Of a stretch of 64,000 bases of DNA, positions 3,821-64,000 are shown piece after piece; position 1 is the stretch's first letter, and each line of letters starts with the position of its first letter. A program made the translations under genes and the position numbers. This DNA is from Spartobacteria bacterium (GTDB lineage: Bacteria > Verrucomicrobiota > Verrucomicrobiia > Chthoniobacterales > UBA6821): NCBI GenBank assembly GCA_947482345.1, contig CANKJN010000005.1, positions 102 to 64,101 on the forward strand, written 5' to 3'. The notes under the pieces were generated by a model. The model was not told where the DNA came from. It worked only from the letters and a program-made list of their open reading frames with translations, and searched no databases.

Positions 3821-4094
3821 GGAAGCGCTGATTAAATCCCATGAAGGCCGCTGAAGAGCATTTGCTGATTTTTGAAGGCGCGAGTGCTGGGCGATACCCG
3901 CAGCGGTCTCGCCCGAGCAAGCAACGCAGCAAAAATCGACAAATGACTTTAGCCCTGCGGGTTGCGGAGATAACAGGCCGGGGGCTGTGTTGGCTTGGCG
4001 GTTACAGCCCACTGCGGGGATGCGCCCACGAAGCCGCCTTGCCCGCGGCCAGTTCTTCCCGCAACGGCCTCTATGCGATTTAATCAACGCTTCC
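3821..4094 (+). mobile_element. IS5-type MITE, copy 1 (274 bp)
   Basis: Terminal inverted repeats (TIRs) GGAAGCGCTGATTAAATC / GATTTAATCAACGCTTCC, flanked on both sides by CTAA (3817-3820, 4095-4098). No transposase. Confidence 0.88.
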
Positions 4095-5365
4095 CTAACT
4101 GCATCGCGACCGTCGCCGGTCGTGAGAAGTGGATCGTGCTCGGGATGCTCTGGCTTGTCTGCCTGCTCAACTACGCCGACCGTCAGGCGATCAGTAGTCT
4201 CTTTCCGCTTCTGGAGCGTGATTTCGGCTTCACTAAGGCGCAACTCGGACTAATCGGCAGCGCCTTCATGTGGGTCTACGCCGCCTCGGCTCCCTTTGCC
4301 GGATATGCGGGCGACCGCGGTTCCCGCAAGGGGCTGATCCTGGGAGGATGTCTCTTCTGGAGTCTCATGACCGGGGCGACCGGTTGGTGCGGTCGTCTCT
4401 GGCATTTCGTCGCGGCGCGTGCCCTGATCGGGTTGGGGGAGCCGGTTTATTTTCCGGCGGCCGCCTCGATGCTCTCGGACTACCATGGTCCCCGCACCCG
4501 CTCGACGGCCCTCTCATTCCACCAGTCGGCGGTCTACATCGGAACGATCGCCGGAGGATGGCTCGGAGCATTGCTGGCCGAGCGCTACGGGTGGCAGTGG
4601 GCCTTCTACGGATTCGGAGGTGCCGGCATCGTGGTTGCCCTGCTCCTCTGGTGGCGCCTGCGCGAGCCGATCCGCGGGGCATCGGAGGATGTCCCGCTGC
4701 AACCGCACGATAAGCATCAAGGGATCCTGCCGACATTCCGGGGATTGCTCGGGCGTCCGGTGGTGCTGCTACTCATGGGGGCCTTTGCCTGTGCGAATGC
4801 GGTGGGATCCATTTTCCTGATTTGGGCCCCGACCTTCCTTTTCGAGAAATTCCAACTCGGCTTGGTGGCTGCCGGTTTCTCGGCCGTGGCCGCGATCCAG
4901 CTTGCCAGCGCGGTGAGCGCCCCGCTCTCGGGGATGCTTGCCGATCGCTTGTCGCTCACGATCCCGGGAGCGCGGATGCTGGTGCAGGCGGTCGCGCTGA
5001 TGGCGGGATCATTCTGCGTGGTGCTCGTCGGTCGTGCCCCGACCATGGAGGCACTGATGGGTGCGATGGTCTGCTTCGGCCTCTGCAAGGGAGCGTATGA
5101 CGGCGGGATCTTCGCCTCGGTCTTTGACTTTGTGAGTCCGCAGGAGAGAGCCTCGGTCGCCGGCCTGATGAATCTCCTCGGATGGGGTGGCGGTGCGCTC
5201 GGTCCGGTGGCGATCGGTTTGGCCGCCACCTATGGCGCGGGGCCACAAATGGAACGGATGAGCGGGGCGATCGCCTGGAGCGGTCTCGCCTACCTCGCGG
5301 CGGCGGGACTGATCATCACCGCCTTCTCGTGTTACCGGACCAGGTTATTCCCAAGGCCGCACTGA
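4073..5365 (+). CDS. MFS transporter (ACS/Spinster-like); native 5' end split by the MITE
   Basis: LLNYADRQAIS, AGYAGDRGSRKG and ARALIGLGEPVYFPAA MFS motifs, with about 12 hydrophobic segments. The original ATG is probably at 3801; an in-frame ATG at 4073 lies inside the MITE. Confidence 0.85.
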   Translation: MRFNQRFPNCIATVAGREKWIVLGMLWLVCLLNYADRQAISSLFPLLERDFGFTKAQLGLIGSAFMWVYAASAPFAGYAGDRGSRKGLILGGCLFWSLMTGATGWCGRLWHFVAARALIGLGEPVYFPAAASMLSDYHGPRTRSTALSFHQSAVYIGTIAGGWLGALLAERYGWQWAFYGFGGAGIVVALLLWWRLREPIRGASEDVPLQPHDKHQGILPTFRGLLGRPVVLLLMGAFACANAVGSIFLIWAPTFLFEKFQLGLVAAGFSAVAAIQLASAVSAPLSGMLADRLSLTIPGARMLVQAVALMAGSFCVVLVGRAPTMEALMGAMVCFGLCKGAYDGGIFASVFDFVSPQERASVAGLMNLLGWGGGALGPVAIGLAATYGAGPQMERMSGAIAWSGLAYLAAAGLIITAFSCYRTRLFPRPH

Positions 5366-6159
5366 CGCGCCATCTCGGCGGGATCGGAGGGCCGGTGCAC
5401 GAGGGAGGCCAGATAGCTGTCGGTGCGAGAAGGCAGGGTGCGGTTGATGTTCGTGGGATTTTCCAATCGGGAGAAGAGCATGCGGCGGATCTTGGAGCGT
5501 GGCACCGATTTCTCGCCGTAGCCGCCGGGGATGTTGCTGGACCAGAAGCGGAGATGGTCGACGCCCTCCTTTGTTTCCGTGCCGAGGTAGATGACGGAGT
5601 GGCCGTGCTCGGTGGAGCCGATGGCATCGCTCCAGAAGATCTTCATGAAGTCGCCGGGGAGCGCCGTGCGGAGATCGGTGAAGTTGGGGCCGAGGCCCAG
5701 TTCGTGAAACAGTCGGGCGGTGCCGGGACCGTTCGCATTCCAGCGTCCCCAGATGCCGGTACCGTCGGGTTGTCCGGCGGGTCGGAGTACCGCCGCGATC
5801 TCCGGCGCGAGGGTGAGTTTTCCCGAGGATTGGAGTCCGGAGAGTGTCTTCAGAAAGACCAGGTAAGTGGCCCCCGAGCAGTAGCTCGGGATGGCGCGGG
5901 AGGCATCAACCTTAAGGCTGCCATCAGAAGCGGTGACTGCTTGGTTCAGTGCGCGGTTCGCGGCGGGGGAGGTGGAGTAGCCTCCTTTGACCGGCATCTG
6001 CCTCACGGATTCAAGGATAAGGCGATTCATGAGAGGAAGGGTGTTGTCATCCGCGTGCAATGGATTCATGAAACAGGTAGCCATCGCCAGTATCCGCACG
6101 ACCCGTGAGCTCATCGTCATCATTACCACGAAGCATCGACAAATCACCCCGCTTCGCAA
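5332..6159 (-). CDS. Secreted NlpC/P60-like papain-fold protein
   Basis: Signal-like N-terminus (start probably 6114-6123). SYCSGATY (Cys), PGDFMKIFW and HGHSVIYLG (His) follow the NlpC/P60 pattern. Confidence 0.6.
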   Translation of the reverse strand: MRSGVICRCFVVMMTMSSRVVRILAMATCFMNPLHADDNTLPLMNRLILESVRQMPVKGGYSTSPAANRALNQAVTASDGSLKVDASRAIPSYCSGATYLVFLKTLSGLQSSGKLTLAPEIAAVLRPAGQPDGTGIWGRWNANGPGTARLFHELGLGPNFTDLRTALPGDFMKIFWSDAIGSTEHGHSVIYLGTETKEGVDHLRFWSSNIPGGYGEKSVPRSKIRRMLFSRLENPTNINRTLPSRTDSYLASLVHRPSDPAEMARQCGLGNNLVR

Positions 6160-6791
6160 GGGTGATCCTCGTCCCTTGTATCATTCTGCTCCTGCTGATC
6201 CTGATCGCATCGTGGCTCTGGTGCCGGCGGGGACCGATCGCGGGATCCGGGGGAATGCCGATCCCGGGCGAGATCGTGATCGGGGTGCCGCAGTTCCATC
6301 AGGGTGACGCCAGATGGAGGAACGACCGGTTGGCCGACACTCCCGGCAGTCTCGGAGGGGAAGGATGTGCAGTCTGCTCGGCGTCGATGGTTCTCTCCCA
6401 CTACGGCATGGATCTCGATCCGCGGCGCCTGAACCGCCTCCTCAGGGAGAACAACGGCTATGAGGGGCGGGGATGGCTGAGGTGGGAGTCGGCGGCGGAG
6501 TTCACTCCCGGATTGGTGGAGAAGGCCTATGAGGATCTCCCCTCGTATGCCCTCATCGACTGGAATCTCCTGCGGGGTAATCCGGTGATCATCCGCATCC
6601 GCCGCCCCGACGGGATCACCCACTTCGTGGTGATCATGGGAAAGCGAGGGTTCGACTACCTGATCCGTGATCCCGCCGGATCGGGCGGGGGGAGAATTTA
6701 CCCCCTCAAGGAACTGGGTGTGCCGGTGGAAGCCCTCAGGTATTACAGGAGGCTTTTCAGCTTACGGGAGGTTTCAGTTCGGTCGAGTTGA
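6105..6791 (+). CDS. C39-like peptidase with N-terminal membrane anchor
   Basis: PQFHQGDARW, GCAVCSASMVLSHYG, THFVVIMG, LIRDPA. Confidence 0.8.
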   Translation: MSSSSSLPRSIDKSPRFARVILVPCIILLLLILIASWLWCRRGPIAGSGGMPIPGEIVIGVPQFHQGDARWRNDRLADTPGSLGGEGCAVCSASMVLSHYGMDLDPRRLNRLLRENNGYEGRGWLRWESAAEFTPGLVEKAYEDLPSYALIDWNLLRGNPVIIRIRRPDGITHFVVIMGKRGFDYLIRDPAGSGGGRIYPLKELGVPVEALRYYRRLFSLREVSVRSS

Positions 6792-7135
6792 CTGGAAGCT
6801 ACGGCGAGGACGAAAGATACCCATTCATCCGCATCGAGACGTTCCTCGGCAAGAAGCCCGTTTTCACTAAGAAAGACCAGGCATGTCGCGAGTGCCGTCC
6901 GCTTGTTTCCATCGATGAAAGGGTGATTGCGGCAGATATAGAAAAGATATGCAGCAGCGATGTCCACCGGGTCGGTGAAGAGTGGTTGCCCCATCATTGT
7001 GGCTTTGGGGGCGGCGATTGCCGATTCCAAGAGTGCCTCGTCTCGGAGGCCTGCCGAACCACCATGTGCCTCCAGCACCGCGAGGTGGATTGATTTCACC
7101 GCTTCCACCGTGGGGTGGGCGAGAGGCTCGTTCAT
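6743..7135 (-). CDS. doc: Doc (Fic-family) toxin
   Basis: HPFIDGNKRT Fic/Doc motif; GLRDEALLESAIAAP. Confidence 0.9.
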   Translation of the reverse strand: MNEPLAHPTVEAVKSIHLAVLEAHGGSAGLRDEALLESAIAAPKATMMGQPLFTDPVDIAAAYLFYICRNHPFIDGNKRTALATCLVFLSENGLLAEERLDADEWVSFVLAVASSQLDRTETSRKLKSLL

Positions 7136-7359
7136 GAAAGCCGCTTAAAGAGGTCGGAATTCTTTCCGATCAATTTTTTGGCCGTGGTAGCCGCCGATTT
7201 GGGCGTGATGACGGGACGGATCGGAGTCAGGACAATGGATCCCCCCTCATGAATACTGATGGAGATCTGATCCCCGACAGCAAGACGGGCGAGATCCATC
7301 AAGGCGGCATCGAACATGACACCCTGAGAGTTACCGATTTTTGAAATCGCCTTGATCAT
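7132..7359 (-). CDS. AbrB/MazE-type antitoxin
   Basis: MIKAISKIGNSQGV swapped-hairpin motif; 4-bp overlap with doc. Confidence 0.88.
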   Translation of the reverse strand: MIKAISKIGNSQGVMFDAALMDLARLAVGDQISISIHEGGSIVLTPIRPVITPKSAATTAKKLIGKNSDLFKRLS

Positions 7360-7421
7360 GGAGTAAAACTAAGTTTAACTCCGGCCTCGGTCAAGAGTTA
7401 GCTTGAAAAAGCCCTCGGTTC

Positions 7422-8693
7422 TTATGCCCAGCCGGTCGGTTTCCTTACCGTGAATAGTAGCGCCAGCAGGCTGACCGCCGCCATGATGGCGAGGTAAAGA
7501 CCGACCGACCAGAGTCCGTGACTGATGGCAAGCGAGGTTGCCGCATAGGGCGCGAGGGAGGCTCCGAGGATGCCGGCCAGATTGAACGCCAGGGAAGAGC
7601 CGGTGTAGCGGATCTCCACGGGGAAGAGCTCCGAGAGGAAGGTACCCAGCGGCGCATAGGTCATTCCCATTAGGATGAACCCGATGATCAGGGTGGCCAT
7701 GACACCCGGGAATCCCGCCGAGAAGAGGGGGCCGAAGCAGAGTCCGAAAACAAGGATCGCTGCGGAAGATACGATGAGCATCACTCTTCGTCCGATCCGC
7801 TTGGCCAACCATGCGGAACAGGGAATCGACAACCCGAAGAAGAGGACGCCGACCAACTGGATCACGAGGAAATCTTCCCGGGTGTAGCCCAGGGTGGTGG
7901 TCCCCCACGAGAGGCAGAAGACCGTCAGCAGATAGAAGATGACAAAGGTGGCCACGGCTCCGAGTGTGGCCAGAAGGAGGAGGGCCAGGTGACTGCGGAA
8001 GACCTCAATCATCGGCACGGCGACATGCCCCCGTCGGGCAGTCACCTCAAGGAACGCGGGGGTCTCGGTGATATGCAACCGGACATAGAGGCCAACAAGG
8101 ACCAGCAGGCTGCTTGCGAGGAACGGGATCCGCCATCCCCAACTCAGGAAGTGCTCGTTATCGAGGAAGGCGGTGAGAAGGAGGAAGATGCCCCCTGAGC
8201 AGAGAAATCCCAACGGAGCACCGAGTTGGGGGAACATCCCGTACCAGTCGCGCTTCCCCGGCGGCGCGTTCTCCGTGGCGAGCAGGATGGCCCCACCCCA
8301 TTCCCCTCCGAGGCCGAATCCCTGGCCGAAGCGGCAGAGCGCTAGCAGTACGGGAGCCGCCAGTCCGATCGATGCGTAAGTGGGGAGTAGTCCGATCGCG
8401 ACCGTCGAGAGTCCCATGGTAAGCAGAGCCGCCACCAGGGTTGCCTTCCGGCCGATGCGGTCGCCGAAGTGTCCAAACACGGCCGATCCGACCGGGCGGG
8501 CGAAGAAAGCCAAGGCGAAGGTGGCGAGTGATTGTAGCGTCGCCGCCGTGGCATCCGAGGAGGGAAAGAAGAGCTTCGGAAAGACGAGGACCGCCGCCGT
8601 GGCATAGATGTAGAAATCAAAGAACTCGATGGCGGTTCCCGCTAGGCTGGCCGTAAGGATCCTGGCCGTGGAATTGGTCGCGGGGGGTGACAT
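7422..8693 (-). CDS. MFS transporter, MHS (metabolite:H+ symporter) family
   Basis: GTAIEFFDFYIY, RPVGSAVFGHFGDRIGRK, QGFGLGGEWGGA, WGWRIPF. Confidence 0.92.
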   Translation of the reverse strand: MSPPATNSTARILTASLAGTAIEFFDFYIYATAAVLVFPKLFFPSSDATAATLQSLATFALAFFARPVGSAVFGHFGDRIGRKATLVAALLTMGLSTVAIGLLPTYASIGLAAPVLLALCRFGQGFGLGGEWGGAILLATENAPPGKRDWYGMFPQLGAPLGFLCSGGIFLLLTAFLDNEHFLSWGWRIPFLASSLLVLVGLYVRLHITETPAFLEVTARRGHVAVPMIEVFRSHLALLLLATLGAVATFVIFYLLTVFCLSWGTTTLGYTREDFLVIQLVGVLFFGLSIPCSAWLAKRIGRRVMLIVSSAAILVFGLCFGPLFSAGFPGVMATLIIGFILMGMTYAPLGTFLSELFPVEIRYTGSSLAFNLAGILGASLAPYAATSLAISHGLWSVGLYLAIMAAVSLLALLFTVRKPTGWA

Positions 8694-8802
8694 GGAAAAG
8701 GAGGGAAAAAAGCTGAAACGCTAAAAAGCTGAAATGGAAATCAGGAAAAAGGTCGATGCACCGATCGGTTCCCGCGGCATCCCCCAATTTTTCATTCTCC
8801 TC

Positions 8803-11109
8803 TTAAAAGCGTTTCTGCTGGGCCATGGAGAACCAGTCGCCGCCCCCCGTTCCGGGCTTTCCCGAGTCGTTGCGCATGTAGCGGCTTAAGTCCTCTTTCC
8901 TTCCTCCTCGATCGGTGCCAGGGGCTCCCTTCGGCTGGCGCGGCGAGAGATCGACCTTGGTCTTGAGGGAGAGGGCGATGCGCTTGCGCGGCAGGTCGAC
9001 CTCCATGACGGTGGTCTGGACTTTCTGGCCGACCTTAAGGAACTCCGCGGGGTTCTTCACGAAGTCGTCGCTGATCTGACTGATGTGGACGAGTCCGTCC
9101 TGATGGACGCCGATGTCGACGAAGGCGCCGAAGGCCGTGACATTCGTCACGATGCCGGGGAGCTTCATGCCCGGCTGGAGGTCCTCCATCTTCTCAACCC
9201 CGTCGGCGAAGCTGAATGCCTCGAACTGCTCGCGCGGGTCGCGGCCGGGCTTGGAAAGCTCGGCGATGATGTCCTTGAGGGTGGGAAGGCCCACCTCCGG
9301 GGTGACATAGCGTTCGGGATTGATGGCGGCACGCTTGGCGGGATCACGCAGGAGATCCTGCACCGTGCAGCCGAGATCCGCAGCCATGCGGTCGACGAGT
9401 TCGTAGCGCTCGGGATGGACGGCACTGGCATCGAGCGGGTGGGCGCCGTCGCGGATGCGCAGGAAGCCCGCGGCCTGCTCGTAGGCCTTGGGTCCGAGGC
9501 CGCTGACCTTGAGGAGTTCCTGGCGTGACTTGAAGGGGCCGCTGGTGTCGCGGTGGGTGACGATGCTGGCGGCGGTGCGGGAGTTGAGCCCCGAGACGTA
9601 GGCAAGGAGGTGTCTGGAGGCGGTGTTAAGCTCCACTCCGACCTTGTTCACGCAGGAGATCACGACATCGTCCAGGGAACGCTTCAGCGCGGCCTGATCG
9701 ACATCGTGCTGGTACTGGCCGACGCCGATTGATTTCGGATCGAGCTTCACCAGCTCGGCGAGCGGATCCATGAGGCGGCGGCCAATGGAGACGGCTCCGC
9801 GGACGGTGAGGTCGAGGTCGGGGAACTCCTCGCGGGCAATCTCGCTTGCCGAGTAGATCGAGGCGCCGCTCTCGCTGACGACGACGATCTGGATAGAGGA
9901 GGGGAGCTTGAGCTTCTTGACGAATGCCTCGGTCTCGCGCGAGGCGGTGCCGTTGCCGATGGCGATCGCCTCGACCTTGTGCAGGCGGACCATGTTCAGG
10001 ATGGCCTCAGCTGCCTCGAGTTCCTCGCCGCGGCTTCTGCCCGGATAGATGACCTCGTTGGCGAGGAGCTTTCCCTGACGGTCGAGCAGGACAACCTTGC
10101 ATCCGGTGCGGAAGCCCGGATCGATGCCGAGGGTGATCTTCTGGCCGAGAGGGGAGGCGAGAAGGAGTTCGCGGAGATTGTCGGCGAAGACACGGATCGC
10201 CTCCTCGTCGGCCTTCTTCTTGTAGAAGCCGCGCGCCTCCACCTCCATGGCGAATCCGACAAGTCGCTTGAGGCAGTCGTCGCAGGCGAGTTTCACCTGC
10301 TCGGATGCCTTGGAGTTCCCCCGCACGAAGAGTCCGTAGAGGGTGCCAAGCGCCTCGCTCTCAGGAGGTGTCAGCCGGGTGTAGAGGAATCCCTCGGTCT
10401 CTCCGCGTCGCATTGCGAGAATCCTGTGGGAAGGGGCCGTGGCGGCCGGTTCGTTCCAGTCGAAGTAGTCCTTAAACTTGGCTCCCTCCTCTTCCTTGCC
10501 CGAGACGAGGGTCGATTTGATGACCCCCTTGTTGAGGTAGAGACTTCGGAGTTGGGCGCGGGCGGTGGCATCGTCGTTGATCCGTTCGGCCAGGATGTCG
10601 CGTGCTCCGGCGAGGACGGCTGCCACGCTGTCGACCGTCGAGGTCTTGGCATCGACGGTGACGGAGTTCCCGACGTAGGGGGCGGCGAGCGCCTCGGGGT
10701 CGGTGGCCGGATCCTGTGCCCAGAGAATTTCGGAAAGCGGCTCCAGACCGAGTTCCTTGGCGATGGTCGCTCGCGTCCTTTTTCTCGGCTTGAATGGGAG
10801 GTAGATGTCCTCGAGGGAATTCAGGGTTGCTGCACTCTCGACCTTGGCCCTGAGTTCCTCGGTCAGGAGCTTGCGTTCCTCGAGTGAGGAAATGATCGAC
10901 TCGCGCCGCTTGTCGAGGGTTTCAAGCTGCTCGAGGCGGTCGCGGATCGCGGTGATCTTCACCTCATCGAGTTCACCTGTCCGCTCCTTGCGGTAACGGG
11001 CGATGAAGGGGACGGTGGCCCCCTCCTCAAGAAGGACGGCTGTGGCGGCGACCTGACGGGCCTGAAGCCCGAGTTCCTGGGTAATCTGGACAAGGTGTTT
11101 TTCGATCAT
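8803..11109 (-). CDS. tex: Tex/YhgF RNA-binding transcriptional accessory protein
   Basis: GATVPFIARYRKERTG, GIDPGFRTGCK, IGVGQYQHDV, C-terminal S1 domain (FGAFVDIGVHQDGLVHIS). Confidence 0.96.
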   Translation of the reverse strand: MIEKHLVQITQELGLQARQVAATAVLLEEGATVPFIARYRKERTGELDEVKITAIRDRLEQLETLDKRRESIISSLEERKLLTEELRAKVESAATLNSLEDIYLPFKPRKRTRATIAKELGLEPLSEILWAQDPATDPEALAAPYVGNSVTVDAKTSTVDSVAAVLAGARDILAERINDDATARAQLRSLYLNKGVIKSTLVSGKEEEGAKFKDYFDWNEPAATAPSHRILAMRRGETEGFLYTRLTPPESEALGTLYGLFVRGNSKASEQVKLACDDCLKRLVGFAMEVEARGFYKKKADEEAIRVFADNLRELLLASPLGQKITLGIDPGFRTGCKVVLLDRQGKLLANEVIYPGRSRGEELEAAEAILNMVRLHKVEAIAIGNGTASRETEAFVKKLKLPSSIQIVVVSESGASIYSASEIAREEFPDLDLTVRGAVSIGRRLMDPLAELVKLDPKSIGVGQYQHDVDQAALKRSLDDVVISCVNKVGVELNTASRHLLAYVSGLNSRTAASIVTHRDTSGPFKSRQELLKVSGLGPKAYEQAAGFLRIRDGAHPLDASAVHPERYELVDRMAADLGCTVQDLLRDPAKRAAINPERYVTPEVGLPTLKDIIAELSKPGRDPREQFEAFSFADGVEKMEDLQPGMKLPGIVTNVTAFGAFVDIGVHQDGLVHISQISDDFVKNPAEFLKVGQKVQTTVMEVDLPRKRIALSLKTKVDLSPRQPKGAPGTDRGGRKEDLSRYMRNDSGKPGTGGGDWFSMAQQKRF

Positions 11110-11159
11110 TGTGAAAGGTGGTTAGGCTGAAGGCGGTTAGACTGTTAGGCAAAAAGACT

Positions 11160-11187
11160 CACAGGGATGAAGGGGATAAAGGGGATG
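11160..11187. repeat. CACAGGGATGAAGGGGAT-type repeat; inverted copy at 62287-62314
   Basis: CACAGGGATGAAGGGGATAAAGGGGATG against the reverse complement of CATCCCTTTCATCCCCTTCATCCCTGTG. Confidence 0.7.
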
Positions 11188-11269
11188 TAAAATGCTGAAT
11201 GATGAAGGAAGTAGTCAAAGGTCGGATGGCTGAATCAATCAACAAAAAGGATGATGGGGATTTCCGATT

Positions 11270-13854: not shown

Positions 13855-14115
13855 CCTTCGACGTTCGTCTCTCGTCCTTAGACATCCTGAGATTGCTGAT
13901 TGTTAATTGTTGATTTTTTATCCCTCGATTGACGGCACTTTGCGCCCACAAAGCGGTGCCGCCCCCTTGGGGTCCCGCATCCGCGGGATCTGCCGCGTCA
14001 CCTCCAGGTGACTTGGCTCTCGACCTTCGTCCTTTGACCTCCTGAGATTGTTAATTGTTGATTGTTGATTACTGCCCCCTGACCTCCGACCTCCGACCTC
14101 CGACCTCTGATCCCT
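13855..14115. repeat. Mosaic heptamer-rich intergenic repeat block
   Basis: GATTGCT/AATTGTT/GACCTCC tandem heptamers. Shares a GTCTCTCGTCC...CTGAGATTGCTGATT segment with 16170-16480. Confidence 0.8.
13925..13997. repeat. REP-like palindromic repeat family C; inverted diverged copy at 35643-35714
   Basis: CACTTTGCGCCCACAAAGCGGTG...GGTCCCGC...GCGGGATC aligns by eye with the reverse complement of 35643-35714. Confidence 0.65.
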
Positions 14116-16161: not shown

Positions 16162-16169
16162 AATAGACC

Positions 16170-16480
16170 TTCGACTTTGGTCTCTCGTCCCTTGACCTCC
16201 TGAGATTGCTGATTTTTTACCCCTCGACTATCGACCTTCGTCCTTCGACTCACATGATTGCTGATTGCTCCCCGCAGATCCCCCTTCTGAATCAACAATT
16301 ACCAATGATGAATTAGCAATTTCACCCACCTTCGCACTTAGCCACCTTTAGCCTTTCCACTTTTTACTTCCCCCTGATCTCCGACCTCTGACCTCCGACC
16401 TCCGACCTTCGACAACGGAGATTGCTGATTGTAGATTGCTGATTTTTTATCTCTCGACTATCGACCTTCGTCCTTCGCCT
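16170..16480. repeat. Mosaic heptamer-rich intergenic repeat block
   Basis: CCGACCT x4, GATTGCT repeats, and two copies of TTTTTA(C/T)C(C/T)CTCGACTATCGACCTTCGTCCTTCG. Confidence 0.8.
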
Positions 16481-40921: not shown

Positions 40922-40990
40922 GCGGTTCATGAAGAATTGTTGATTGTTAATTGTTAATTGCTTCCGCCCCCAACTGAAACCAACGGATTC

Positions 40991-42465: not shown

Positions 42466-42844
42466 GGAAGCGCTGATTAAATCCCATGAAGGCCGCTGAA
42501 GAGCATTTGCTGATTTTTGAAGGCGCGAGTGCTGGGCGATACCCGCAGCGGTCTCGCCCGAGCGAGCAACGCCACAAAAATCGACAAATGGCTTCAGCCC
42601 TTCGGGTTGCGGAGATCCAAGCCAAAGGCCACAAAGCCTTTGGCTTCGTGCCGTGGCACGGGGGCCAACTGTGTTGGCTTGGCACTTTGCTTGCCCGGCC
42701 GTTGCTTCGCATCCGTTACGGCAGCCCGCAGAGGGGATGCTCGTGCCAAGCCGCCTTACCCACGGCCCATGGCTTGCCCGGTCGTTGCTTTGCATCCGCT
42801 ACGGCTTCCCGCAACGGCCTCTATGCGATTTAATCAGCGTTTCC
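42466..42844 (+). mobile_element. IS5-type MITE, copy 2 (379 bp)
   Basis: Same TIRs and arms as 3821-4094; CTAA duplicated at 42462-42465 and 42845-42848. Confidence 0.88.
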
Positions 42845-44141: not shown

Positions 44142-44396
44142 CAGTCGTGATTGCTGATTGTTGGTTGTTGGTTGTTGCTGACCATAGAGATTGTTGATTG
44201 TTAATTGCTGATTGCTGTTCCCTGTTCCCTGTTCCCACTTTCCGCTTTCAGGTTTCAGGTTTCATCCCTCATAATTGACACCACTTCCTCCCGGAAGCCG
44301 TGGCGCCCCGTTGGGGCTACGACTGCGTCGTAGTCTACCGCGTGCCATCCCAGGCGCTTGGTTCATCCTTCATAATTTCCTCGTCCTCCCCAACCC

Positions 44397-49826: not shown

Positions 49827-50140
49827 GGAAGCGCTGATTAAATCGCATAGAGGCCGTTGCGGAAAGAGTGGGCCGCGGGCAAGGCGGCTTCGCGGGCGCA
49901 TCCCCGCAGTGGGCTGTAACCGCGAAGCCAACGAAGCACCCGGCCTGTTATGGCGTTGCTTGCTCGGGCGAGACCACTGCGGGTATTGACTCGCTCGCTC
50001 CCGCGAGGCTCGCCCTGTCGGGTTTGCCTGCGGCAAATCTACCCAAGCAGCCCCCGCAGCTACGTGTTGCCCAGCGCTCGCGCCTTCAAAAATCAGCAAC
50101 TGCCCTTCAGCGGCCATCATGGGATTTAATCAGCGTTTCC
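49827..50140 (-). mobile_element. IS5-type MITE, copy 3 (314 bp, inverted)
   Basis: Same TIRs and arms in reverse orientation; CTAA at 49823-49826 and 50141-50144. Confidence 0.88.
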
Positions 50141-50322
50141 CTAAAGGGGAGACAAATGAAAAATTGAACCGAGACGAAGTTCGGGAAGGCTGAAGTAGTA
50201 AAAGGAGCGAAGGTTAGGGCTGAAAGGAGGGAGGATTATGGGGAACCTGGTTGCTGATTGCTGATTGATGGAACCCGAACTCTGACCTCTGAACTCTGAT
50301 CTAACGGCACTTGTACCCCCGT

Positions 50323-51339: not shown

Positions 51340-51458
51340 GATACCAAACTAAACCATTTTCCATCGGTGCTGAAAAGTTCAGGTAAGAGGGAAAAGTATG
51401 AAGGATGAAATTCCACTAGTATGAAATGGAATAGGCCCGAGCTCCGAAGTTGAGCAGA

Positions 51459-51478
51459 GCGATTTAATCAGCGCTTCC
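51459..51478. mobile_element. Solo MITE/IS5 TIR upstream of amtB
   Basis: GCGATTTAATCAGCGCTTCC followed by TTAG; no partner end nearby. Confidence 0.7.
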
Positions 51479-56635: not shown

Positions 56636-56679
56636 TGATTCGGCTTTCACGCGACGGCGCGTGATTTTAAGCTGAAGGC

Positions 56680-57654: not shown

Positions 57655-57795
57655 GAGGAAGTGAAAAAGCTGAAAGCTAAAGGATAAAAAAGGAATCCCA
57701 ATGCAGGCTACGCGAGGCTGAAGGAACATTACCTGCTCGCGGGTTTTCGTTGCCCAACTTTTCATTCTTCATTCTGCCTTTTTCCTTTTCTTGCA

Positions 57796-58656: not shown

Positions 58657-58660
58657 ATCC

Positions 58661-59461
58661 ATGAAGCCGGCTTCCTTCCTCTCTGTTTTTGTGGAGTCGC
58701 CGGAGAATCCCTCACCCGGATGGCTCAAGGGATCGTGGCTCGTACTGATCCTCTTTGTGGCCTCCCTGCTCTGCTCACTCGTCATGGGTGGCGCGGCGGG
58801 TGTGACTCGTGGGGGATGGGAAGCTGTTTGGAATTATCGGGGCGTTTTTCTGGAGGGATGGCTCCTCACTATCCTGATCTCCCTCCTGTCGCTGCTCCTG
58901 AGCGGCGCGATCGGCGTGGCGGTCGCCCTGTCACGGCGTTCCCGCATCCTGCCCCTGCGTTCCATGGCCCTTCTCTACGTGGAAGTGATTCGGGGAACAC
59001 CGCTCCTGGCCCAGATCCTTTTCCTCTTCTATGTCGTGGCCAACGGCATCGGCCTGCAGGACCGCCTTGCGGCTGGCATCCTGATCCTCTCGCTCTTCAG
59101 CGGCGCCTATCTCTCCGAGATGATCCGCGCCGGGATCGACTCGGTTCCCGCCTCCCAACTGGAATCCGCCCGTGCCCTCGGCCTGACCTCCCTCCAGACT
59201 TACCGCTTTGTCATTGCTCCGCAGGCGCTGCGTCAGATCCTTCCGCCGCTGGCCGGGCAGTTCGCGTCGCTGATCAAGGACTCATCGCTTCTCTCGATCA
59301 TCGGCATCGGGGAGTTCACACTCGCCGCCCAGCAGGTCAACTCGGCCACCTACCGGACGCTCGAGAGCTATCTCCCCCTCGCCATCGGCTACCTGGCGCT
59401 CACACTCCCCATATCACTGCTCGCCAAGATGCTCGAGCGGCGCCTTCGCTTTGAATCCTGA
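58661..59461 (+). CDS. Polar amino-acid ABC transporter permease
   Basis: YVEVIRGTPLLAQI, AYLSEMIRAGI, LIKDSSL. Start at ATG 58661. Confidence 0.9.
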   Translation: MKPASFLSVFVESPENPSPGWLKGSWLVLILFVASLLCSLVMGGAAGVTRGGWEAVWNYRGVFLEGWLLTILISLLSLLLSGAIGVAVALSRRSRILPLRSMALLYVEVIRGTPLLAQILFLFYVVANGIGLQDRLAAGILILSLFSGAYLSEMIRAGIDSVPASQLESARALGLTSLQTYRFVIAPQALRQILPPLAGQFASLIKDSSLLSIIGIGEFTLAAQQVNSATYRTLESYLPLAIGYLALTLPISLLAKMLERRLRFES

Positions 59462-59464
59462 ATC

Positions 59465-60217
59465 ATGAGACTCGAGGTTCACGGCATCACCAAATCCTTC
59501 TCACCCGGGAGAGACCCCGCCGTGCGACGCACGGTGCTCGACGGTCTCTCTCTCGATGTGGAGTTCCCCCATGTCCTCGCACTGCTGGGGCCGAGCGGCG
59601 GCGGGAAGTCGACACTCCTGCGCGTGATCGCCGGACTGGAGCGTCCCGATTCCGGCGCCGTGGTGATCAACGGCGAGAAGGTGCCCGATCGAGAGCCCGC
59701 GCTCCGGGATTACCGCCGGACACTCGGCGTGGTCTTTCAGGCGTTCAACCTCTTCCCCCACATGACGGTTCTGCGGAACGTCATGCTCCCCCTTGTCGAG
59801 GTTCACGGGATCGATCGATCCACCGCGCAGGATCGCTCGATGGAGGTGATGGAACGGCTCGGCATCGCCGATCAGGCGGCGAAGCTCCCGGCTCAACTCT
59901 CGGGTGGCCAGCGCCAGCGCGTTGCCATCGCGCGCGCCCTCGCCGCGAAGCCCCGCTTTCTCCTGTTCGACGAGCCGACCTCGGCCCTCGATCCCGAGAT
60001 GACGGCCGAGGTCCTCTCCCTCATCGCCGACCTTCGGGAGTCGAACACACCGATGCTCCTGGTCACCCACGAGATGGGTTTCGCGCGCAAGATCGCCGAC
60101 CGCGTGGCCTTCCTCTCAGCGGGACGTGTGCTGGAAGAGGGTTCTGCGGCGGAGTTCTTTGCCAGCCCGCGGACCGTCGAAGCGCAACGCTTTCTGGCAA
60201 AGGTCCTGGCGTACTGA
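59465..60217 (+). CDS. Polar amino-acid ABC transporter ATP-binding protein (GlnQ-like)
   Basis: GPSGGGKST, FQAFNLFPH, LSGGQRQR, DEPTSALDPE, VTHEMGFA. Confidence 0.92.
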   Translation: MRLEVHGITKSFSPGRDPAVRRTVLDGLSLDVEFPHVLALLGPSGGGKSTLLRVIAGLERPDSGAVVINGEKVPDREPALRDYRRTLGVVFQAFNLFPHMTVLRNVMLPLVEVHGIDRSTAQDRSMEVMERLGIADQAAKLPAQLSGGQRQRVAIARALAAKPRFLLFDEPTSALDPEMTAEVLSLIADLRESNTPMLLVTHEMGFARKIADRVAFLSAGRVLEEGSAAEFFASPRTVEAQRFLAKVLAY

Positions 60218-60357
60218 CGGAAATGGACTCGCGCTGGGGCGCAGAGACACAGGGTTGCCGAGGATAAGATTGACCCAAGATTTTGCAATGGAACCCTGAC
60301 AACAGGTCTGGAGTGTGAACCAAGATGGTGAAGACGAAGCAAGTGAGGGAGAACCAC

Positions 60358-60574
60358 GCCGTAACGGATGCGCAGCAACGGCCGGGCATGACAAAACGCG
60401 AAAGTCACGAAATGCCGAGGGGTGAGAGAAGGAAAAACGAAGTCTAATGGCTTCCTTCATTTCGTGCTTTATGTGTGTTTCGTGGTTCCTTCGGTGTTCA
60501 ATCCCAGCCCGCCTGCCAAGTTCCCTCCATTCTTGTTTTTGCTAGCCCGGCCGTTGCTTCGCATCCGTTACGGC
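60358..60574. repeat. Inverted pair of a 30-bp REP-like unit (60358-60387, 60545-60574) also found inside MITE copy 2
   Basis: GCCCGGCCGTTGCTTCGCATCCGTTACGGC; one mismatch between the two arms. Also at 42693-42722, and weakly at 42776-42806 and 63622-63647. Confidence 0.8.
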
Positions 60575-60904
60575 TGATTTCCTGACAAAAATTCTTTGCA
60601 CATCACCTTCTAATGCAATTTTTGGGATTATCTCATAGAAAGCGGGATACATTCACGCAAAGGTCGCCACGAGCGCCAAGGAGTGTTCAGACGAGAGTCG
60701 TACTTCAGGGATGGGAAGAACGAGGTGTGTACCAGTCTTTTGGGCAAGTTCAGAAGCGCGTTTCAAGAAAACATGCGGCAGTGGTTAGCACTGGGTCCGG
60801 TAGAGCAGTTTCCCTTTCGTTCTCCTTTGCGTCCGTTGCGTGAAATGCTCCTCTCCTTGAGCGACAAAACATCTTATCCGAAACTCTCACCCGCTCTCGA
60901 CTTC

Positions 60905-60936
60905 AAAGAAAAGGCCCCGCCGTTCCCGGCGGGGCC
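60905..60936 (-). terminator. Rho-independent terminator of the porin gene
   Basis: GGCCCCGCCG-TTCC-CGGCGGGGCC stem with an adjacent A-run (U-tract on the minus strand). Confidence 0.8.
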
Positions 60937-60962
60937 CTCCTTGTCAGTAACCAACTCGAAGT

Positions 60963-61865
60963 TTAGAATGAGTAGCTGATGCTACCGCCGGCGTAAGCCT
61001 TGCTGATCGGGGTGGACGTCATCGAGACGGAGTTCATGAGGTCGGGCTGATAGGTGTAGGCGATGTATCCGGTCAGAGCGATGCTGCTGGTGATCTTCCA
61101 AGTGATGGGAGCAACGAGCTGCCAGTTGTTGAATCCGAATACCTTCTTGCCCTGGTTATCAATGTTGTAACCGAAGGAGAAGTTGTACTGGGTCACGGGA
61201 TTGAAGCTCACGATGTCCTTGTAGAGGGGCACCGAGGCGGCAAGCGCCGGGCTGAGGAAACTCGAACCGGCGTTGATGCTGGCGTAGTTGTTCGGAGCGG
61301 CTTGGCCGAGTTCGTAGAAGTAGGTGATCGAGGGAGTCCAGGAAACTGCACCGGTCTTGACCGTGTAGTTCGCCGTGACGTTAACCTCGTGCTGTATGCC
61401 CGTGCCACCCGGAGTGTAGGCGATGCCGGTCTTCGGGAATCCATAGTTGAAGTAGTTGTACATGGTGTACCCGCAGCCTAGGCCGAAATTGCCGAAGGTG
61501 TGCAGGTAGTTGATCGGAATGTCGAGCTCGGTGTAGGGGTTGCCGTTGTAGGGAGCCGAGTTGCCGGTCTGTCCGACTGCCACGCAGAACCAGAGAGGCA
61601 TCGTGAGTGTGTCGTTGGCGGTAATGTGCCAGGTCGGGGCTACGGTCACGGTCCAGATGCCGGTGTTCGGGATCCAGTCGATACCGCGGAAGTTGTACAT
61701 ACTGTCGTAACCGGTGCTGATCGTGCCGGTGAAGGCAGGCGTCGGTGTCTCGATGACGGGCTGCTTGAAGTTTTTGCTCGTAGAGTTGGTCTCACCCGCC
61801 TGAACGGCTGAGGAAGCCGTCAGCGCACAGAGGGCGAAGGCGGCGATGGTCTTGGTCATTTTCAT
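60963..61865 (-). CDS. Outer-membrane beta-barrel, TorF/Gcw_chp-like putative porin
   Basis: Signal peptide, GYDSMYNFRG (compare SDYxFRG), alternating aromatic strands, C-terminal SISYSF. Start at ATG 61865. Confidence 0.7.
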   Translation of the reverse strand: MKMTKTIAAFALCALTASSAVQAGETNSTSKNFKQPVIETPTPAFTGTISTGYDSMYNFRGIDWIPNTGIWTVTVAPTWHITANDTLTMPLWFCVAVGQTGNSAPYNGNPYTELDIPINYLHTFGNFGLGCGYTMYNYFNYGFPKTGIAYTPGGTGIQHEVNVTANYTVKTGAVSWTPSITYFYELGQAAPNNYASINAGSSFLSPALAASVPLYKDIVSFNPVTQYNFSFGYNIDNQGKKVFGFNNWQLVAPITWKITSSIALTGYIAYTYQPDLMNSVSMTSTPISKAYAGGSISYSF

Positions 61866-61925
61866 GGTTGGTTTAGGTTGGTTTGGGATTTCAAGGGTTT
61901 GGATGAAACCCCGTGCATCAGTAAA

Positions 61926-61941
61926 AGCACACGCCGTGCCA
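61926..61941 (-). promoter_or_regulatory. Sigma54 (-24/-12) promoter of the porin
   Basis: Minus strand TGGCACGGCGTGTGCT matches TGGCACG-N4-TTGCW at all but one position, about 60 bp upstream of the ATG. Confidence 0.7.
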
Positions 61942-62064
61942 ACTTCTCCAAACCACACTTTACAGAGTAATGGCCTCTTTGCAGTGGTCGGAAAAGGACT
62001 CGATACCCCTCGTTGATCAAAAAAAACCATTCCTCGGCTCTTTTCTGCTCAATTCGTTGGTTTA

Positions 62065-62164
62065 GAGCATGGTGCAACAGGTAGTGAACGGATCGGTTAC
62101 ATGTTTAGGGCGTCAAACCATTACAATGTGGACTGAGGGGAGCGTCGATAATTGCACCATGCTC
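62065..62164. promoter_or_regulatory. Putative enhancer half-sites (NtrC-like TGCACCA)
   Basis: GAGCATGGTGCAA (62065-62077) and TTGCACCATGCTC (62152-62164) form a perfect 13-bp inverted repeat upstream of the sigma54 site. Confidence 0.45.
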
Positions 62165-62381
62165 ACCAAGAGTGATGCGGCTTTCGTGTCGAGGGTTTGG
62201 GTCTGATTGCTGCAATCCCTTTTCACCTTTTAACACTTCAACTTTTTAACCCGATCGCTGCACACCCCCACCACTTTCTTATTTCCCATCCCTTTCATCC
62301 CCTTCATCCCTGTGATTATTCGTCTGCATCTCGGCCACAATCTCCCTTGTCTGAGCCGAGCCACCCGACCACCCTTCTGGC

Positions 62382-63029
62382 ATGGCATCCCTGTTCACCC
62401 CGGCCCATCTGCACCTTGCGATCAACCACGTGCCGATCATCGGCCTCGCGGTTGCCTGCCTACCCATCCTGATCGGAGTACTCTTCAAGGGAAGGAGTGC
62501 CCTTGCTTCCGGTCTGCTCGCCGTAATCCTCTGCGCCGGCACCATGCCCGCCATCATGGAAACAGGCGAAGCCGCCCAGGAATCCTTCGCCGACGGATCG
62601 ATCGAGCCGGGGATGGATGCGCCGGGCAAGGCGGCCTTCCGGGAACACAGCGGCCGGGCGAAGTTCACAGCCCCCGTGGTCTATGCCACGGGTCTTCTCG
62701 CGGTGATCGCCCTGCTGGCCCTCATCAAGTTCCCCCGTGAGGCGGGCGTGATCGGCTGGGCGGTCATGATCGGGGCGCTTCTCTCCATCACGCTGAGCAT
62801 CTGGACAGCCGAGGCGGGAGGACGGATCCGGCACACGGAATTCCGCCCCGTGCCCAAAGCAACCGCGACTCCATCCCCGACGGAGTCGTCGCCAGCCCCG
62901 TCACCAATCCCCGCGCCCTCGCCGACACCCCTCCCTTCCGCGACACCGATGACATCGCCTGCTTCCTCTACCTCCAATGCAACGCCGGCCCCCGCCGATG
63001 CGGGGCCCGCCGAGAGCGGCAACCGATGA
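62382..63029 (+). CDS. DUF2231-like membrane protein with Pro/Thr-rich tail
   Basis: HLHLAINHVPIIG, four hydrophobic segments, GGRIRH, PSPT-rich C-terminus. Confidence 0.6.
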   Translation: MASLFTPAHLHLAINHVPIIGLAVACLPILIGVLFKGRSALASGLLAVILCAGTMPAIMETGEAAQESFADGSIEPGMDAPGKAAFREHSGRAKFTAPVVYATGLLAVIALLALIKFPREAGVIGWAVMIGALLSITLSIWTAEAGGRIRHTEFRPVPKATATPSPTESSPAPSPIPAPSPTPLPSATPMTSPASSTSNATPAPADAGPAESGNR

Positions 63030-63553
63030 CCGCCGCGGCTCACGATCCCTCCTCCTCGGAGCGTCTCTGCGGCGCCTGCGGCATGTGCTGTGACGGCGTC
63101 CTCTTCCACTCCGTCGAGTTGCAGGCTGGAGAGAACCCGCGCCAGCTTTCCGCCCTCGGACTGAAGCTCCGGCGCAAGAAGGGGGTCGAATTCTTCCTCC
63201 AGCCCTGCTCCGCTCACCGCGAGGAGAGCGGCGCCTGCTCCTGCACCATCTACGAGGATCGGCCATCGCGTTGCCGCCTCTTCAACTGCCGCCAGATTCT
63301 TGCTGTGGAGGCGGGTTCCGTCTCCGAGGCGGACGCCCTGGAAAAGATCCGCAACGCGCGCGCTCAGGTAGCGAGGGTGAACGACCTCATCTCCCGACTC
63401 GGCGAGAGCAATCCTGCGCGATCGCTCGCCCACCGCACGGCAAATGCCCTGACTTTGGCGGAGGGCGCGGAGCGAACCGAACTCCATGATGAGCTGGATG
63501 CCACCATGAAGGGGCTCGAGGGGTTTCTTGCGAAGGAATTCCGCATCGGCTGA
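63026..63553 (+). CDS. YkgJ-family cysteine cluster protein
   Basis: CGACGMCC, PCSAH, CTIYEDRPSRCRLFNC. Confidence 0.85.
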   Translation: MTAAAHDPSSSERLCGACGMCCDGVLFHSVELQAGENPRQLSALGLKLRRKKGVEFFLQPCSAHREESGACSCTIYEDRPSRCRLFNCRQILAVEAGSVSEADALEKIRNARAQVARVNDLISRLGESNPARSLAHRTANALTLAEGAERTELHDELDATMKGLEGFLAKEFRIG

Positions 63554-63679
63554 TTTTTTGGAAATGCTCCGGGAGCGGTTGTTTCGGGATTCATCTCCCC
63601 GGTCCCTTTGCGTCTCTGCGTTTGCTTGCCCGGCCATTACTTCGCATTTGAATTGATGATCGGACAACCCATCCGATCA

Positions 63680-63855
63680 CCCTTGCGGGCTGTGCTGACA
63701 CACATTCTATGTCGTTCTTGCCACCGCTAGACTCCATTCGGGCGTTCCCAAGCCACTCGCCCCTATCGGGACTGCTTCGCAGTCCTATCAGCTTTGATTA
63801 GCTCGTTCGCGCTCGGCTCACCCTTGCGGGCTGAACTTTCGTTCAGTCTAACCAC
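63680..63855. repeat. Cluster of short palindromes (REP-like)
   Basis: CACCCTTGCGGGCTG twice; GGACTGC-TTC-GCAGTCC; CTGAAC-TTTC-GTTCAG hairpins. Confidence 0.55.
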
Positions 63856-63930
63856 GCCGTTCCCACGGCCATGTGTTCGCCAGTCGCTGATTTGTTACGG
63901 TTGCGCGGGAAATTCCCTTTTTTCTGCTAA

Positions 63931-64000
63931 GGAGGCGCTGATTAAATGGCATAGAGGCCGCAAAGTATCGTTCAAGACCAATTATACCATTTACATAGCT
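63931..64000. mobile_element. End of a related IS5-type element or MITE running off the window
   Basis: CTAA then GGAGGCGCTGATTAAATGGCATAGAGGCCG; the sequence then diverges from the MITE arms. Confidence 0.65.

What the first reader, a model, noticed from the sequence alone, without database searches (positions are those of the whole stretch)
3821..64000. Modular IS5-type MITE family with variable internal palindromic cargo
Seen: three complete copies (274, 379 and 314 bp), a solo end (51459) and another end at 63931. Complete copies have 18-bp TIRs, CTAA/TTAG target duplications and conserved arms. The middles differ by gain or loss of hairpin modules, one of which also occurs free at 60358/60545. 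Established: YTAR target duplication is typical of IS5-subgroup elements. Inference: an active non-autonomous family that captures REP-like units. The 63931 element may be the autonomous partner.
Basis: partly seen in the sequence, partly recalled or inferred. Interest (0 to 1): 0.62.

Follow-up and report, generated by a model that had tools for sequence, protein, structure and literature searches.

The report
IS5-type miniature transposon (MITE) family
The repeats are real copies of a small non-coding jumping element that borrows the transposase of an IS5-type insertion sequence; this is an ordinary kind of mobile DNA, here recently active and abundant in one genus of uncultured freshwater Verrucomicrobia.

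Summary
The window carries three complete elements (274, 379 and 314 bp), each flanked by a duplicated CTAA, plus two end remnants. The whole 2.36-Mb assembly has about 98 loci (0.9% of the DNA).

It is an IS5-family MITE:
- The 18-bp end matches the ends of an intact 1.23-kb IS5 element (NF033581 transposase, 4-bp YTAR duplication) in two species of the same genus.
- Seven copies of this genome, including window copy 1, have clean empty sites in sister species.

- The partner IS is not in this assembly.
- The end at 63931 is a 33-bp remnant. An unrelated IS630 element lies about 20 bp further on, so this is not the autonomous partner.
- The "free" modules at 60358/60545 lie inside a second MITE of IS1380 type.
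- Hairpin modules M1-M4 occur almost only inside the MITE. Only a 37-nt, weakly folding unit is shared with other contexts. I found no link between that unit and a REP-type (RAYT) transposase.

Extra points: copy 1 sits in codon 6/7 of an MFS transporter gene, and an ATG in the element's end restores the reading frame. At six or more genes on other contigs, 20-nt end remnants directly abut the start codon.

Verdict: a new member of a known kind, of modest interest.

The parts
3817..3820 (.). Left copy of the CTAA target duplication of copy 1
   Evidence: sister species have a single CTAA here
3821..4094 (+). MITE copy 1, the 274-bp backbone form (A end on the left). It is inserted in codon 6/7 of an MFS transporter gene.
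   Evidence: The site is empty in G025, G022 and G023, whose genes start intact as MNHPIT/N... As ssDNA it folds at -77.1 kcal/mol, z = -7.06.
4095..4098 (.). Right copy of the CTAA target duplication of copy 1
3801..3818 (+). The displaced original first six codons (MNHPIT) of the MFS gene, now cut off from the gene by copy 1
   Evidence: alignment with the empty sites in three congeners
4073..5365 (+). MFS transporter reading frame, 430 aa, as it now stands. It starts at an outward-facing ATG inside the B end of copy 1 (MRFNQRFP + NCIATVAGREKW..).
   Evidence: PF07690 at 219 bits. That this ATG is used is inference.
42466..42844 (+). MITE copy 2, 379 bp: the backbone plus module M4 and two copies of the 37-nt unit (42686-42722 and 42769-42805). 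CTAA lies on both sides. It sits between an exosortase gene and a glycosyltransferase gene.
49827..50140 (-). MITE copy 3, 314 bp (B end on the left): the backbone plus module M2 (about 49988-50068), minus a 44-bp backbone segment. CTAA lies on both sides.
   Evidence: The element is absent from the matching intergenic region of G025, which is otherwise rearranged.
51461..51478 (-). Remnant of a MITE end (GATTTAATCAGCGCTTCC followed by TTAG). It is fused to the 30-nt terminus (51436-51465) of a different repeat family.
63931..63963 (+). Remnant of a B end, about 33 bp, preceded by CTAA. The MITE sequence stops here.
63984..64000 (.). Start of an unrelated IS630-family insertion sequence. It is repeated at six other contig ends, and its transposase reads on the opposite strand.
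   Evidence: NF033545 at 198.8 bits
60274..60626 (.). Second MITE family, with ends CCCAAGATTTTGCAATGG ... CTAATGCAATTTTTGGG that resemble those of an IS1380-family IS on contig C53.
   Evidence: the C53 transposase scores 247.5 bits on NF033539

Best explanation
**What it is.** These are copies of a non-autonomous DNA transposon (MITE) that an IS5-family DDE transposase mobilises in trans.

**How it moves.**
- The transposase recognises the 18-bp terminal inverted repeat GGAAGCGCTGATTAAATC.
- It inserts the element at YTAR tetranucleotides and duplicates those four bases.

**The partner.**
- The cognate element is a 1.23-kb IS5-group IS with a 325-aa transposase.
- It is intact in two species of the same genus but absent from this assembly.
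- The copies here were therefore spread by a partner that has since been lost, or that sits outside the binned contigs.

**Structure of the element.**
- The MITE shares only its ends with the IS, so it is not a simple internal deletion of that IS.
- Its interior is a chain of hairpins that lets the whole element fold back on itself.
- Length variants (274-601 bp) differ by whole hairpin modules bracketed by 4-6-nt direct repeats.
- The most likely cause is replication slippage across hairpins (loss), with some exchange between copies.
- One short 37-nt dispersed unit has entered at two fixed places.

**Shown:**
- Matching ends and target duplication.
- Empty sites in sister species.
- Distribution limited to one genus.

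**Inferred:**
- Which transposase acts on the element.
- The slippage mechanism.
- Whether the partner has really been lost.
For: - **Ends and duplication match an IS5 element.** G022:C5 (1234 bp, CTAG/CTAG) and G017:C28 (1233 bp, TTAA/TTAA) carry GGAAACGCTGATTTAATC ... GATTTAATCAGCGCTTCC. Their 325-aa protein scores 343 bits on NF033581 (cut-off 140) and has PF01609 plus PF05598. This IS clade has the same ends and YTAR duplications in 59 further loci from many lineages.
- **The 4-bp duplication is real.** 21 of 47 elements have identical flanks against 7.3 expected. The identical pairs include off-consensus CTGG/CTGG and CTAT/CTAT.
- **Empty sites exist.** Window copy 1 and six other copies are exactly absent, with one copy of the target, in congeners 90-97% identical in the flanks. 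One copy is shared with G022.
- **Distribution is narrow.** Copy number is 0 to 96 among 23 species of the genus. The element is absent from the sister genus and from 70 other genera of the order.
- **No coding capacity.** The 80-codon frame has no Pfam match.
- **Modules.** The alignment shows sharp presence/absence. M1-M4 occur almost only next to MITE backbone.
Against: - No cognate transposase, and no IS subterminal sequence, is in this genome's 125 contigs. Mobilisation in this particular strain is therefore not demonstrated. The assembly is 93% complete with a 3.1-kb minimum contig, so a collapsed 1.2-kb IS contig could have been dropped.
- The MITE and the IS share only 18-20 bp, so the partnership rests on the ends and the target duplication alone.
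- 26 of 47 elements have non-identical flanks (14 differ at one base). Decay, recombination between copies or chimeric joins in a metagenome assembly could each explain this.
- Core copies are only about 90% identical on average, so much of the expansion is not very recent.
Confidence: 0.9

Rival explanations
1. The elements are selected structured RNA or DNA modules (regulators, terminators or small-RNA genes) that spread because of their function. On this view the transposon-like ends are secondary.
For: - The fold is strong: z = -7.06 for copy 1, with 102 consensus pairs.
- Six pairs show compensatory double changes. Three of them lie in one hairpin.
- The one orthologous pair (G000:C9 vs G022:C72) differs mainly by coordinated changes on both arms of that hairpin.
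Against: - There is no Rfam match in the window.
- Copies occur in both orientations relative to genes, and one lies inside a coding region.
- Exact 4-bp duplications and empty sites are transposon signatures.
- Coordinated arm changes in palindromes can arise by template switching or by conversion between copies, without selection on a product.
Confidence: 0.05
2. The length variants arose by capture: a minimal 54-bp two-end element progressively acquired free-living hairpin or REP-like units.
For: - Minimal 54-, 45- and 27-bp forms made only of the two ends exist in this genome, and pairs of ends at the same spacings occur in congeners.
- The 37-nt unit is found at two fixed sites in some MITE copies and in 59 non-MITE places.
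Against: - M1-M4 are almost never found away from MITE backbone: 65 of 71 hits are adjacent to it.
- Each is bracketed by short direct repeats (TTGAA, CAAYAC, RCAA), as expected for slippage deletion of hairpins.
- The 37-nt unit is not a stable palindrome (-6.9 kcal/mol).
- It does not flank either Y1-transposase gene.
Confidence: 0.2
3. A transposase that is present in this genome moves the elements. Candidates are the IS1380-family, IS4-family or the other IS5-family (IS5_1-type) element, rather than the absent NF033581-type IS.
For: - Intact IS1380- and IS4-family transposases, and fragments of a second IS5-family IS, are present.
- Earlier notes of this scan report that IS1380-type MITEs of related Verrucomicrobia also use YTAR. 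I did not test that here.
Against: Their ends do not resemble the MITE end within 5 mismatches: CCCAGATTTTGC for IS1380 and GTCGRYCCTTAAAAA for the IS5_1-type element.
Confidence: 0.04

Closest known systems
IS5 and the IS5 group of the IS5 family (E. coli IS5; NCBIfam NF033581)
   Same: The ends begin with GGAAG. The target duplication is 4 bp at YTAR. The full element is about 1.2 kb with a single DDE transposase (PF01609 + PF05598), as seen in congeners.
   Different: The window elements are 274-379 bp with no transposase. They share only the terminal 18-20 bp with the IS.
IS5-family-related bacterial MITEs: BrickBuilt, MITE293 and MITE700 of Porphyromonas gingivalis, and the ISNme1 derivatives of Neisseria (PMC4596501)
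   Same: They are non-coding elements whose terminal repeats match resident IS5-family ISs. No transposase remnant was found in them. They have a modular make-up and are predicted to form long stem-loops.
   Different: - The sequences are unrelated and the host phylum differs.
- Here the 4-bp duplication is regular and statistically supported, and empty sites are documented.
- The cognate IS is missing from the host assembly.
Rickettsia palindromic elements and other gene-invading MITEs (reviewed in PMC2229807 and PMC3184786; comparison from my own knowledge)
   Same: A copy lies inside a coding region (the MFS gene, codon 6/7) while the gene keeps an open frame.
   Different: The 274 + 4 bp insertion is not a multiple of three, so it is not read through. 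The frame is restored by a new ATG in the element's end, not by in-frame translation of the insert.
REP/BIME elements with RAYT (Y1) transposases
   Same: The 37-nt unit is short, has many copies, is mostly intergenic, and also occurs inside other repeats.
   Different: The hairpin is weak. The unit does not flank the two Y1_Tnp genes. No conserved 5' tetranucleotide was identified.

Membership tests
IS5-family MITE | Terminal inverted repeats match those of an IS5-family insertion sequence | tested here: met
   The ends match over 18-20 bp those of the 1.23-kb IS in G022:C5 and G017:C28. That IS encodes an NF033581 transposase at 343 bits.
IS5-family MITE | 4-bp target duplication at YTAR, as for the IS5 group | tested here: met
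   All three window copies are CTAA/CTAA. 21 of 47 elements have identical flanks against 7.3 +/- 2.2 by permutation. Empty sites show one copy of the tetranucleotide.
IS5-family MITE | Small, many copies, no transposase gene | tested here: met
   Lengths are 274-601 bp. There are about 98 loci totalling 20.5 kb. The only frame, 80 codons, has no Pfam match.
IS5-family MITE | Evidence of mobility (presence/absence at orthologous sites) | tested here: met
   Seven copies have precise empty sites in congeners, and one copy is shared with G022.
IS5-family MITE | Cognate autonomous element in the same genome | tested here: not met
   - tblastn best E = 3.1.
- The only NF033581 hit (30.6 bits) is an unrelated IS5_1-type fragment.
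- No IS subterminal sequence was found.
- The feature is met in two congeners.
- It is not strictly defining for a MITE.
IS5-family MITE | Transposase actually binds and moves the element | not testable with these tools
   This needs a transposition or binding assay.
REP / RAYT system (for the 37-nt unit) | Stable imperfect palindrome | tested here: not met
   The best fold has 5 + 2 base pairs, at -6.9 to -8.3 kcal/mol.
REP / RAYT system (for the 37-nt unit) | Units flank a Y1 (RAYT) transposase gene | tested here: not met
   Two PF01797 genes exist (C70, C33). Neither has the unit within about 600 bp, even allowing up to 9 errors.
IS1380-family MITE (for window 60274-60626) | Ends resemble those of an IS1380-family IS | tested here: inconclusive
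   The ends CCCAAGATTTTGC / GCAATTTTTGGG resemble the ends around the NF033539 transposase on C53. The 4-bp flanks of the window copy (TTGA / ATTA) are not identical.

The most novel reading that the evidence does not exclude
The element's ends may act as portable gene starts.

- Both ends carry an outward ATG in the same frame (ATG-SGA-TTT-AAT-CAG-CGC-TTC-C, then the YTAR read without a stop). The A end also carries an inward ATG.
- This would let insertions into the first codons of a gene be tolerated. An example is copy 1 in the MFS gene, where MNHPIT is replaced by MRFNQRFP.
- After nearly precise excision, a 20-nt end remnant would stay directly in front of the native start codon. This is seen at six or more genes, including nth and trpD.
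- The family would then repeatedly rewrite 5' leaders and N-termini in this lineage.
Probability: 0.15. Interest if true: 0.55.

Novelty: new member of a known kind. Interest (0 to 1): 0.3.

Why it matters
- **Assembly and annotation.** The family makes up about 0.9% of this genome. It breaks the assembly at 15 contig ends and differs in copy number from 0 to about 100 between species of one genus. Anyone assembling, binning or annotating these freshwater Verrucomicrobia needs to know about it.
- **A marker of recent history.** Most tested insertions are younger than the split from species 90-97% identical in the flanks, so the insertions can serve as markers of recent strain history.
- **MITE without its IS.** It is a clean natural example of a MITE family that thrives where its IS is missing.
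- **Effects on gene starts.** Hairpin-rich inserts reshape gene starts here. One transporter gene now depends on a start codon supplied by the element, if it is still expressed.

None of this changes what is known about how such elements work.

Tried and rejected
1. **Autonomous partner at 63931: rejected.** The contig ends 212 bases beyond the window, inside an IS630-family element that is repeated at six other contig ends.
2. **Partner among the six PF01609 hits of the own genome: rejected.** They are IS4, IS1380, IS5_1-type and ISL2/IS427-like elements. None has the MITE end within 5 mismatches.
3. **The end motif as a general translation or leader signal: rejected.** It precedes only about 7 of 2868 long frames. 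In congeners the same genes lack it.
4. **Selection for the outward-ATG frame: not supported.** Long outward frames number 20 in the ATG frame against 16 in another stop-free frame.
5. **A 2-bp TA duplication instead of 4 bp: rejected.** Flank positions 1 and 4 co-vary between the two sides, and CTGG/CTGG and CTAT/CTAT pairs exist.
6. **A RAYT link for the 37-nt unit: not found**.
7. **Empty site for copy 2: uninformative.** Synteny downstream is not kept in G022.
9. **Whole-family flank survey (45 elements): cut to 7 elements.** Earlier searches had scored only 14 candidates per genome.
Full report
**Observation**

- Copy 1: 3821-4094, 274 bp.
- Copy 2: 42466-42844, 379 bp.
- Copy 3: 49827-50140, 314 bp, inverted.

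Each has CTAA on both sides. The end GGAAGCGCTGATTAAATC is 18 bp and continues as an imperfect repeat of about 33 bp. The two ends can be told apart: the A end reads ..AAATCCCATGAAGG and the B end ..AAATCGCATAGAGG.

The window is contig C5:102-64101 of a 2.36-Mb assembly with 125 contigs, 93% complete. Genome-wide counts:
- 185 end matches at up to 3 mismatches.
- 96 hits for a degenerate 18-mer, against 0 for the reversed control.
- 58 paired ends, with a modal length of 274 bp.
- 98 loci by BLAST with the consensus, 20.5 kb in total. Fifteen of them touch a contig end.

**What it is**

The own genome has six PF01609 (DDE transposase) matches. They are IS4, IS1380, IS5_1-type and ISL2/IS427-like, and none carries the MITE end.

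A search of the 23 species of the genus found two intact elements with the MITE's ends:
- G022:C5, 1234 bp, flanked by CTAG/CTAG.
- G017:C28, 1233 bp, flanked by TTAA/TTAA.

Their 325-aa protein is an IS5-family transposase. It scores 343 bits on NF033581 against a cut-off of 140, and carries PF01609 and PF05598.

A scan of public genomes names G022 as a 'Verrucomicrobiia bacterium' MAG. It also shows that this IS clade has the same ends, a length of about 1.2 kb and YTAR duplications in 59 further loci, from Verrucomicrobiota, Burkholderiales and others.

The MITE and the IS share only the terminal 18-20 bp. The element is therefore a 'borrowed ends' MITE, not an internal deletion of this IS.

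**Target duplication and mobility**

Identical 4-bp flanks occur in 21 of 47 elements, against 7.3 +/- 2.2 after shuffling. They include the off-consensus pairs CTGG/CTGG and CTAT/CTAT. Flank positions 1 and 4 co-vary between the two sides, which excludes a 2-bp TA duplication.

Joined-flank queries found exact empty sites:
- Copy 1 is absent from G025, G022 and G023. G025 has a single CTAA at the site; the other two have diverged there.
- Six other copies are absent from congeners whose flanks are 91-97% identical: C9:25100, C9:35991, C21:24767, C17:15530, C12:7601 and C63:8455.
- C9:35991 is also present, as a 274-bp orthologue, in G022.
- Copy 3 is absent from G025, but that spacer is rearranged. 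Copy 2 was uninformative.

The family occurs in 17 of 23 species of the genus, with 0 to 96 hits. It is absent from 13 genomes of the sister genus. The A end is found in 1 of 71 genera of the order.

Core copies average 90% pairwise identity. The expansion is therefore spread over time, with many insertions younger than the species splits.

**The partner in this genome**

- tblastn with the G022 transposase finds nothing (best E = 3.1).
- The only NF033581 hit (30.6 bits, C10:9-167) belongs to another IS5-family element, whose ends are GTCGRYCCTTAAAAA.
- No contig contains the IS's subterminal sequence. By contrast, the IS630 element leaves about 128-bp stubs at seven contig ends.
- The smallest contig is 3.1 kb, so a collapsed 1.2-kb IS contig could have been filtered out.

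I rate true absence as likely but unproven.

**The two end remnants**

- At 63931 the B end runs for about 33 bp. About 20 unrelated bases follow. From about 63984 an IS630-family element begins (NF033545, 198.8 bits), with its transposase on the other strand.
- At 51461-51478 the outer part of the end (followed by TTAG) is fused to a 30-nt terminus of a third repeat family, seen at 17 other loci.

**Modules**

An alignment of 11 representatives shows a 274-bp backbone with optional blocks:
- M1: 99 bp, after position 51.
- M2: 81 bp.
- M3: 75 bp.
- M4: about 50 bp, replacing about 14 bp of backbone.
- A 37-nt unit at two fixed sites.

Copy 2 is the backbone plus M4 and both 37-nt units. Copy 3 is the backbone plus M2, minus 44 bp.

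M1-M4 fold strongly (-25 to -50 kcal/mol). They occur next to MITE backbone in 15/16, 15/18, 16/18 and 19/19 hits. M1-M3 are bracketed by short direct repeats (TTGAA, CAAYAC, RCAA). This fits slippage deletion of hairpins. That is inference from established behaviour of palindromes, not something shown here.

The 37-nt unit (TTTGCTTGCCCGGCCGTTGCTTCGCATCCGTTACGGC) is different:
- It has 95 hits, 59 of them away from the MITE.
- It folds weakly.
- It does not sit beside either Y1_Tnp gene.

The copies at 60358 and 60546 lie inverted inside a 353-bp element, 60274-60626. That element's ends resemble those of the IS1380-family IS on C53, and it has about a dozen relatives in the genome.

**Structure**

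- Copy 1 folds as ssDNA at -77.1 kcal/mol, z = -7.06.
- The consensus fold of 23 core copies has 102 pairs. Six show compensatory double changes, three of them in one hairpin.
- The G000/G022 orthologous pair differs mainly by coordinated changes on both arms of that hairpin.
- The window has no Rfam match.

I read this as template switching or conversion within palindromes. Selection on a folded transposition intermediate is not excluded.

**Effects on genes**

Copy 1 lies in codon 6/7 of an MFS transporter (PF07690). Congeners start the protein with MNHPIT-N... Here an ATG at 4073, inside the B end, is in frame and opens a 430-aa frame beginning MRFNQRFP-NCIATV...

Both ends carry such an outward ATG. 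However, long outward frames are no commoner in that frame than in another stop-free frame (20 vs 16), so I do not claim selection for it.

Elsewhere in the genome, a 20-nt A-end remnant directly abuts the start codon of at least six genes. They include nth, a trpD-like gene, a secretion-ATPase-like gene, an 893-aa gene and an arfB-like gene. For four of these loci I made alignments with congeners. They show that the ATG is the native start. They also show that the remnant is a lineage-specific addition of roughly 10-25 nt in a very short spacer.

The A end reads ..CCCATGA(A/T)G, so 3-6 nt of microhomology with the gene start is available. My inference is nearly precise excision by slippage, kept because it restores a compact gene start.

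**Comparison and verdict**

The closest known things are:
- The IS5 group itself.
- IS5-related MITEs such as BrickBuilt, MITE293 and MITE700 of P. gingivalis, which likewise share only ends with resident ISs and are modular stem-loop formers (PMC4596501).

Two literature searches and look-ups in two of the papers they returned (a P. gingivalis MITE paper and a large 2024 MITE census) found no description of this family in Verrucomicrobia.

This is a new member of a known kind, well supported and of modest interest.

Noticed in passing
window 63984-64000 (continues off the contig); also ends of G000 contigs C107, C80, C103, C41, C4, C40: A multi-copy IS630-family element (TA + CCATTTACATAGC.., 356-aa transposase, NF033545). 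It breaks the assembly at seven or more contig ends.
   Followed up: yes
window 60274-60626: A 353-bp MITE of a second family with IS1380-like ends. It has about 12 relatives in the genome. An intact IS1380-family transposase (NF033539) sits on C53:7886-9241.
   Followed up: partly
window 42686-42722, 42769-42805, 60358-60386, 60546-60574, 63621-63657 (partial): A 37-nt dispersed unit, TTTGCTTGCCCGGCCGTTGCTTCGCATCCGTTACGGC, with about 95 copies genome-wide. It occurs inside two MITE families, in other recurring contexts and in unique spacers. It folds weakly, and its mechanism of spread is unknown.
   Followed up: partly
window 51436-51465: Terminus of a third small repeat family (CCGAGCTCCGAAGTTGAGCAGAGCGATTTA), seen at 17 other loci. 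Full copies look like a roughly 240-bp element with ACCCGAACTCCGAAG.. inverted ends flanked by TTAA-like sites.
   Followed up: partly
G000 contigs C60:11063, C60:11781, C61:3406, C55:14949, C10:3182(-), C76:10766(-): A 20-nt remnant of the MITE A end lies exactly between a YTAR and the ATG of real genes, including nth, a trpD-like gene and an arfB-like gene. At the four loci compared, most congeners lack it. It is probably left over from nearly precise excision.
   Followed up: partly
G000 contigs C8:444-461, C73:250-267, C85:559-576, C120:198-215, C20:12835-12852; C26:22901, C36:22565, C60:12719: The same junction recurs at several loci with different outer flanks: the first 15-17 nt of the IS5-type end joined to an end of the IS1380-type or the third repeat family. 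Either the TTAA inside the end is a hot spot for nested insertion, or hybrid elements move as a unit. This is unresolved.
   Followed up: no
G000:C9:35991-36264 vs G022:C72:4370-4643: The two orthologous MITE copies are nearly identical except for coordinated changes on both arms of one hairpin (GGCTTCGCGG..CCGCGAAGCC vs GGCTTGGCAC..GTGCCAAGCC). Both variants circulate among copies within one genome.
   Followed up: partly
window 13855-14110, 16168-16480, 40933-40972, 44147-44234, 50258-50299: Tandem low-complexity repeats with a 7-nt period (GATTGCT/GATTGTT and CTCCGAC/CTCTGAC types) in intergenic spacers. Earlier notes of this scan treat such heptamer arrays.
   Followed up: no
window 63672-63709 and 63813-63850: Two copies of a 38-nt sequence (TCSGMTCACCCTTGCGGGCTG..), 141 bp apart, just upstream of the B-end remnant. 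A similar string precedes the IS630 end on contig C41.
   Followed up: no
G000 contigs C70:9238-10176 and C33:2273-3349: Two Y1 (PF01797) transposase-like genes of 313 and 359 aa. The C70 gene is bracketed by an inverted 32-bp repeat. Upstream of the C33 gene lies a roughly 80-140-nt repeat that matches more than 40 other contigs.
   Followed up: no
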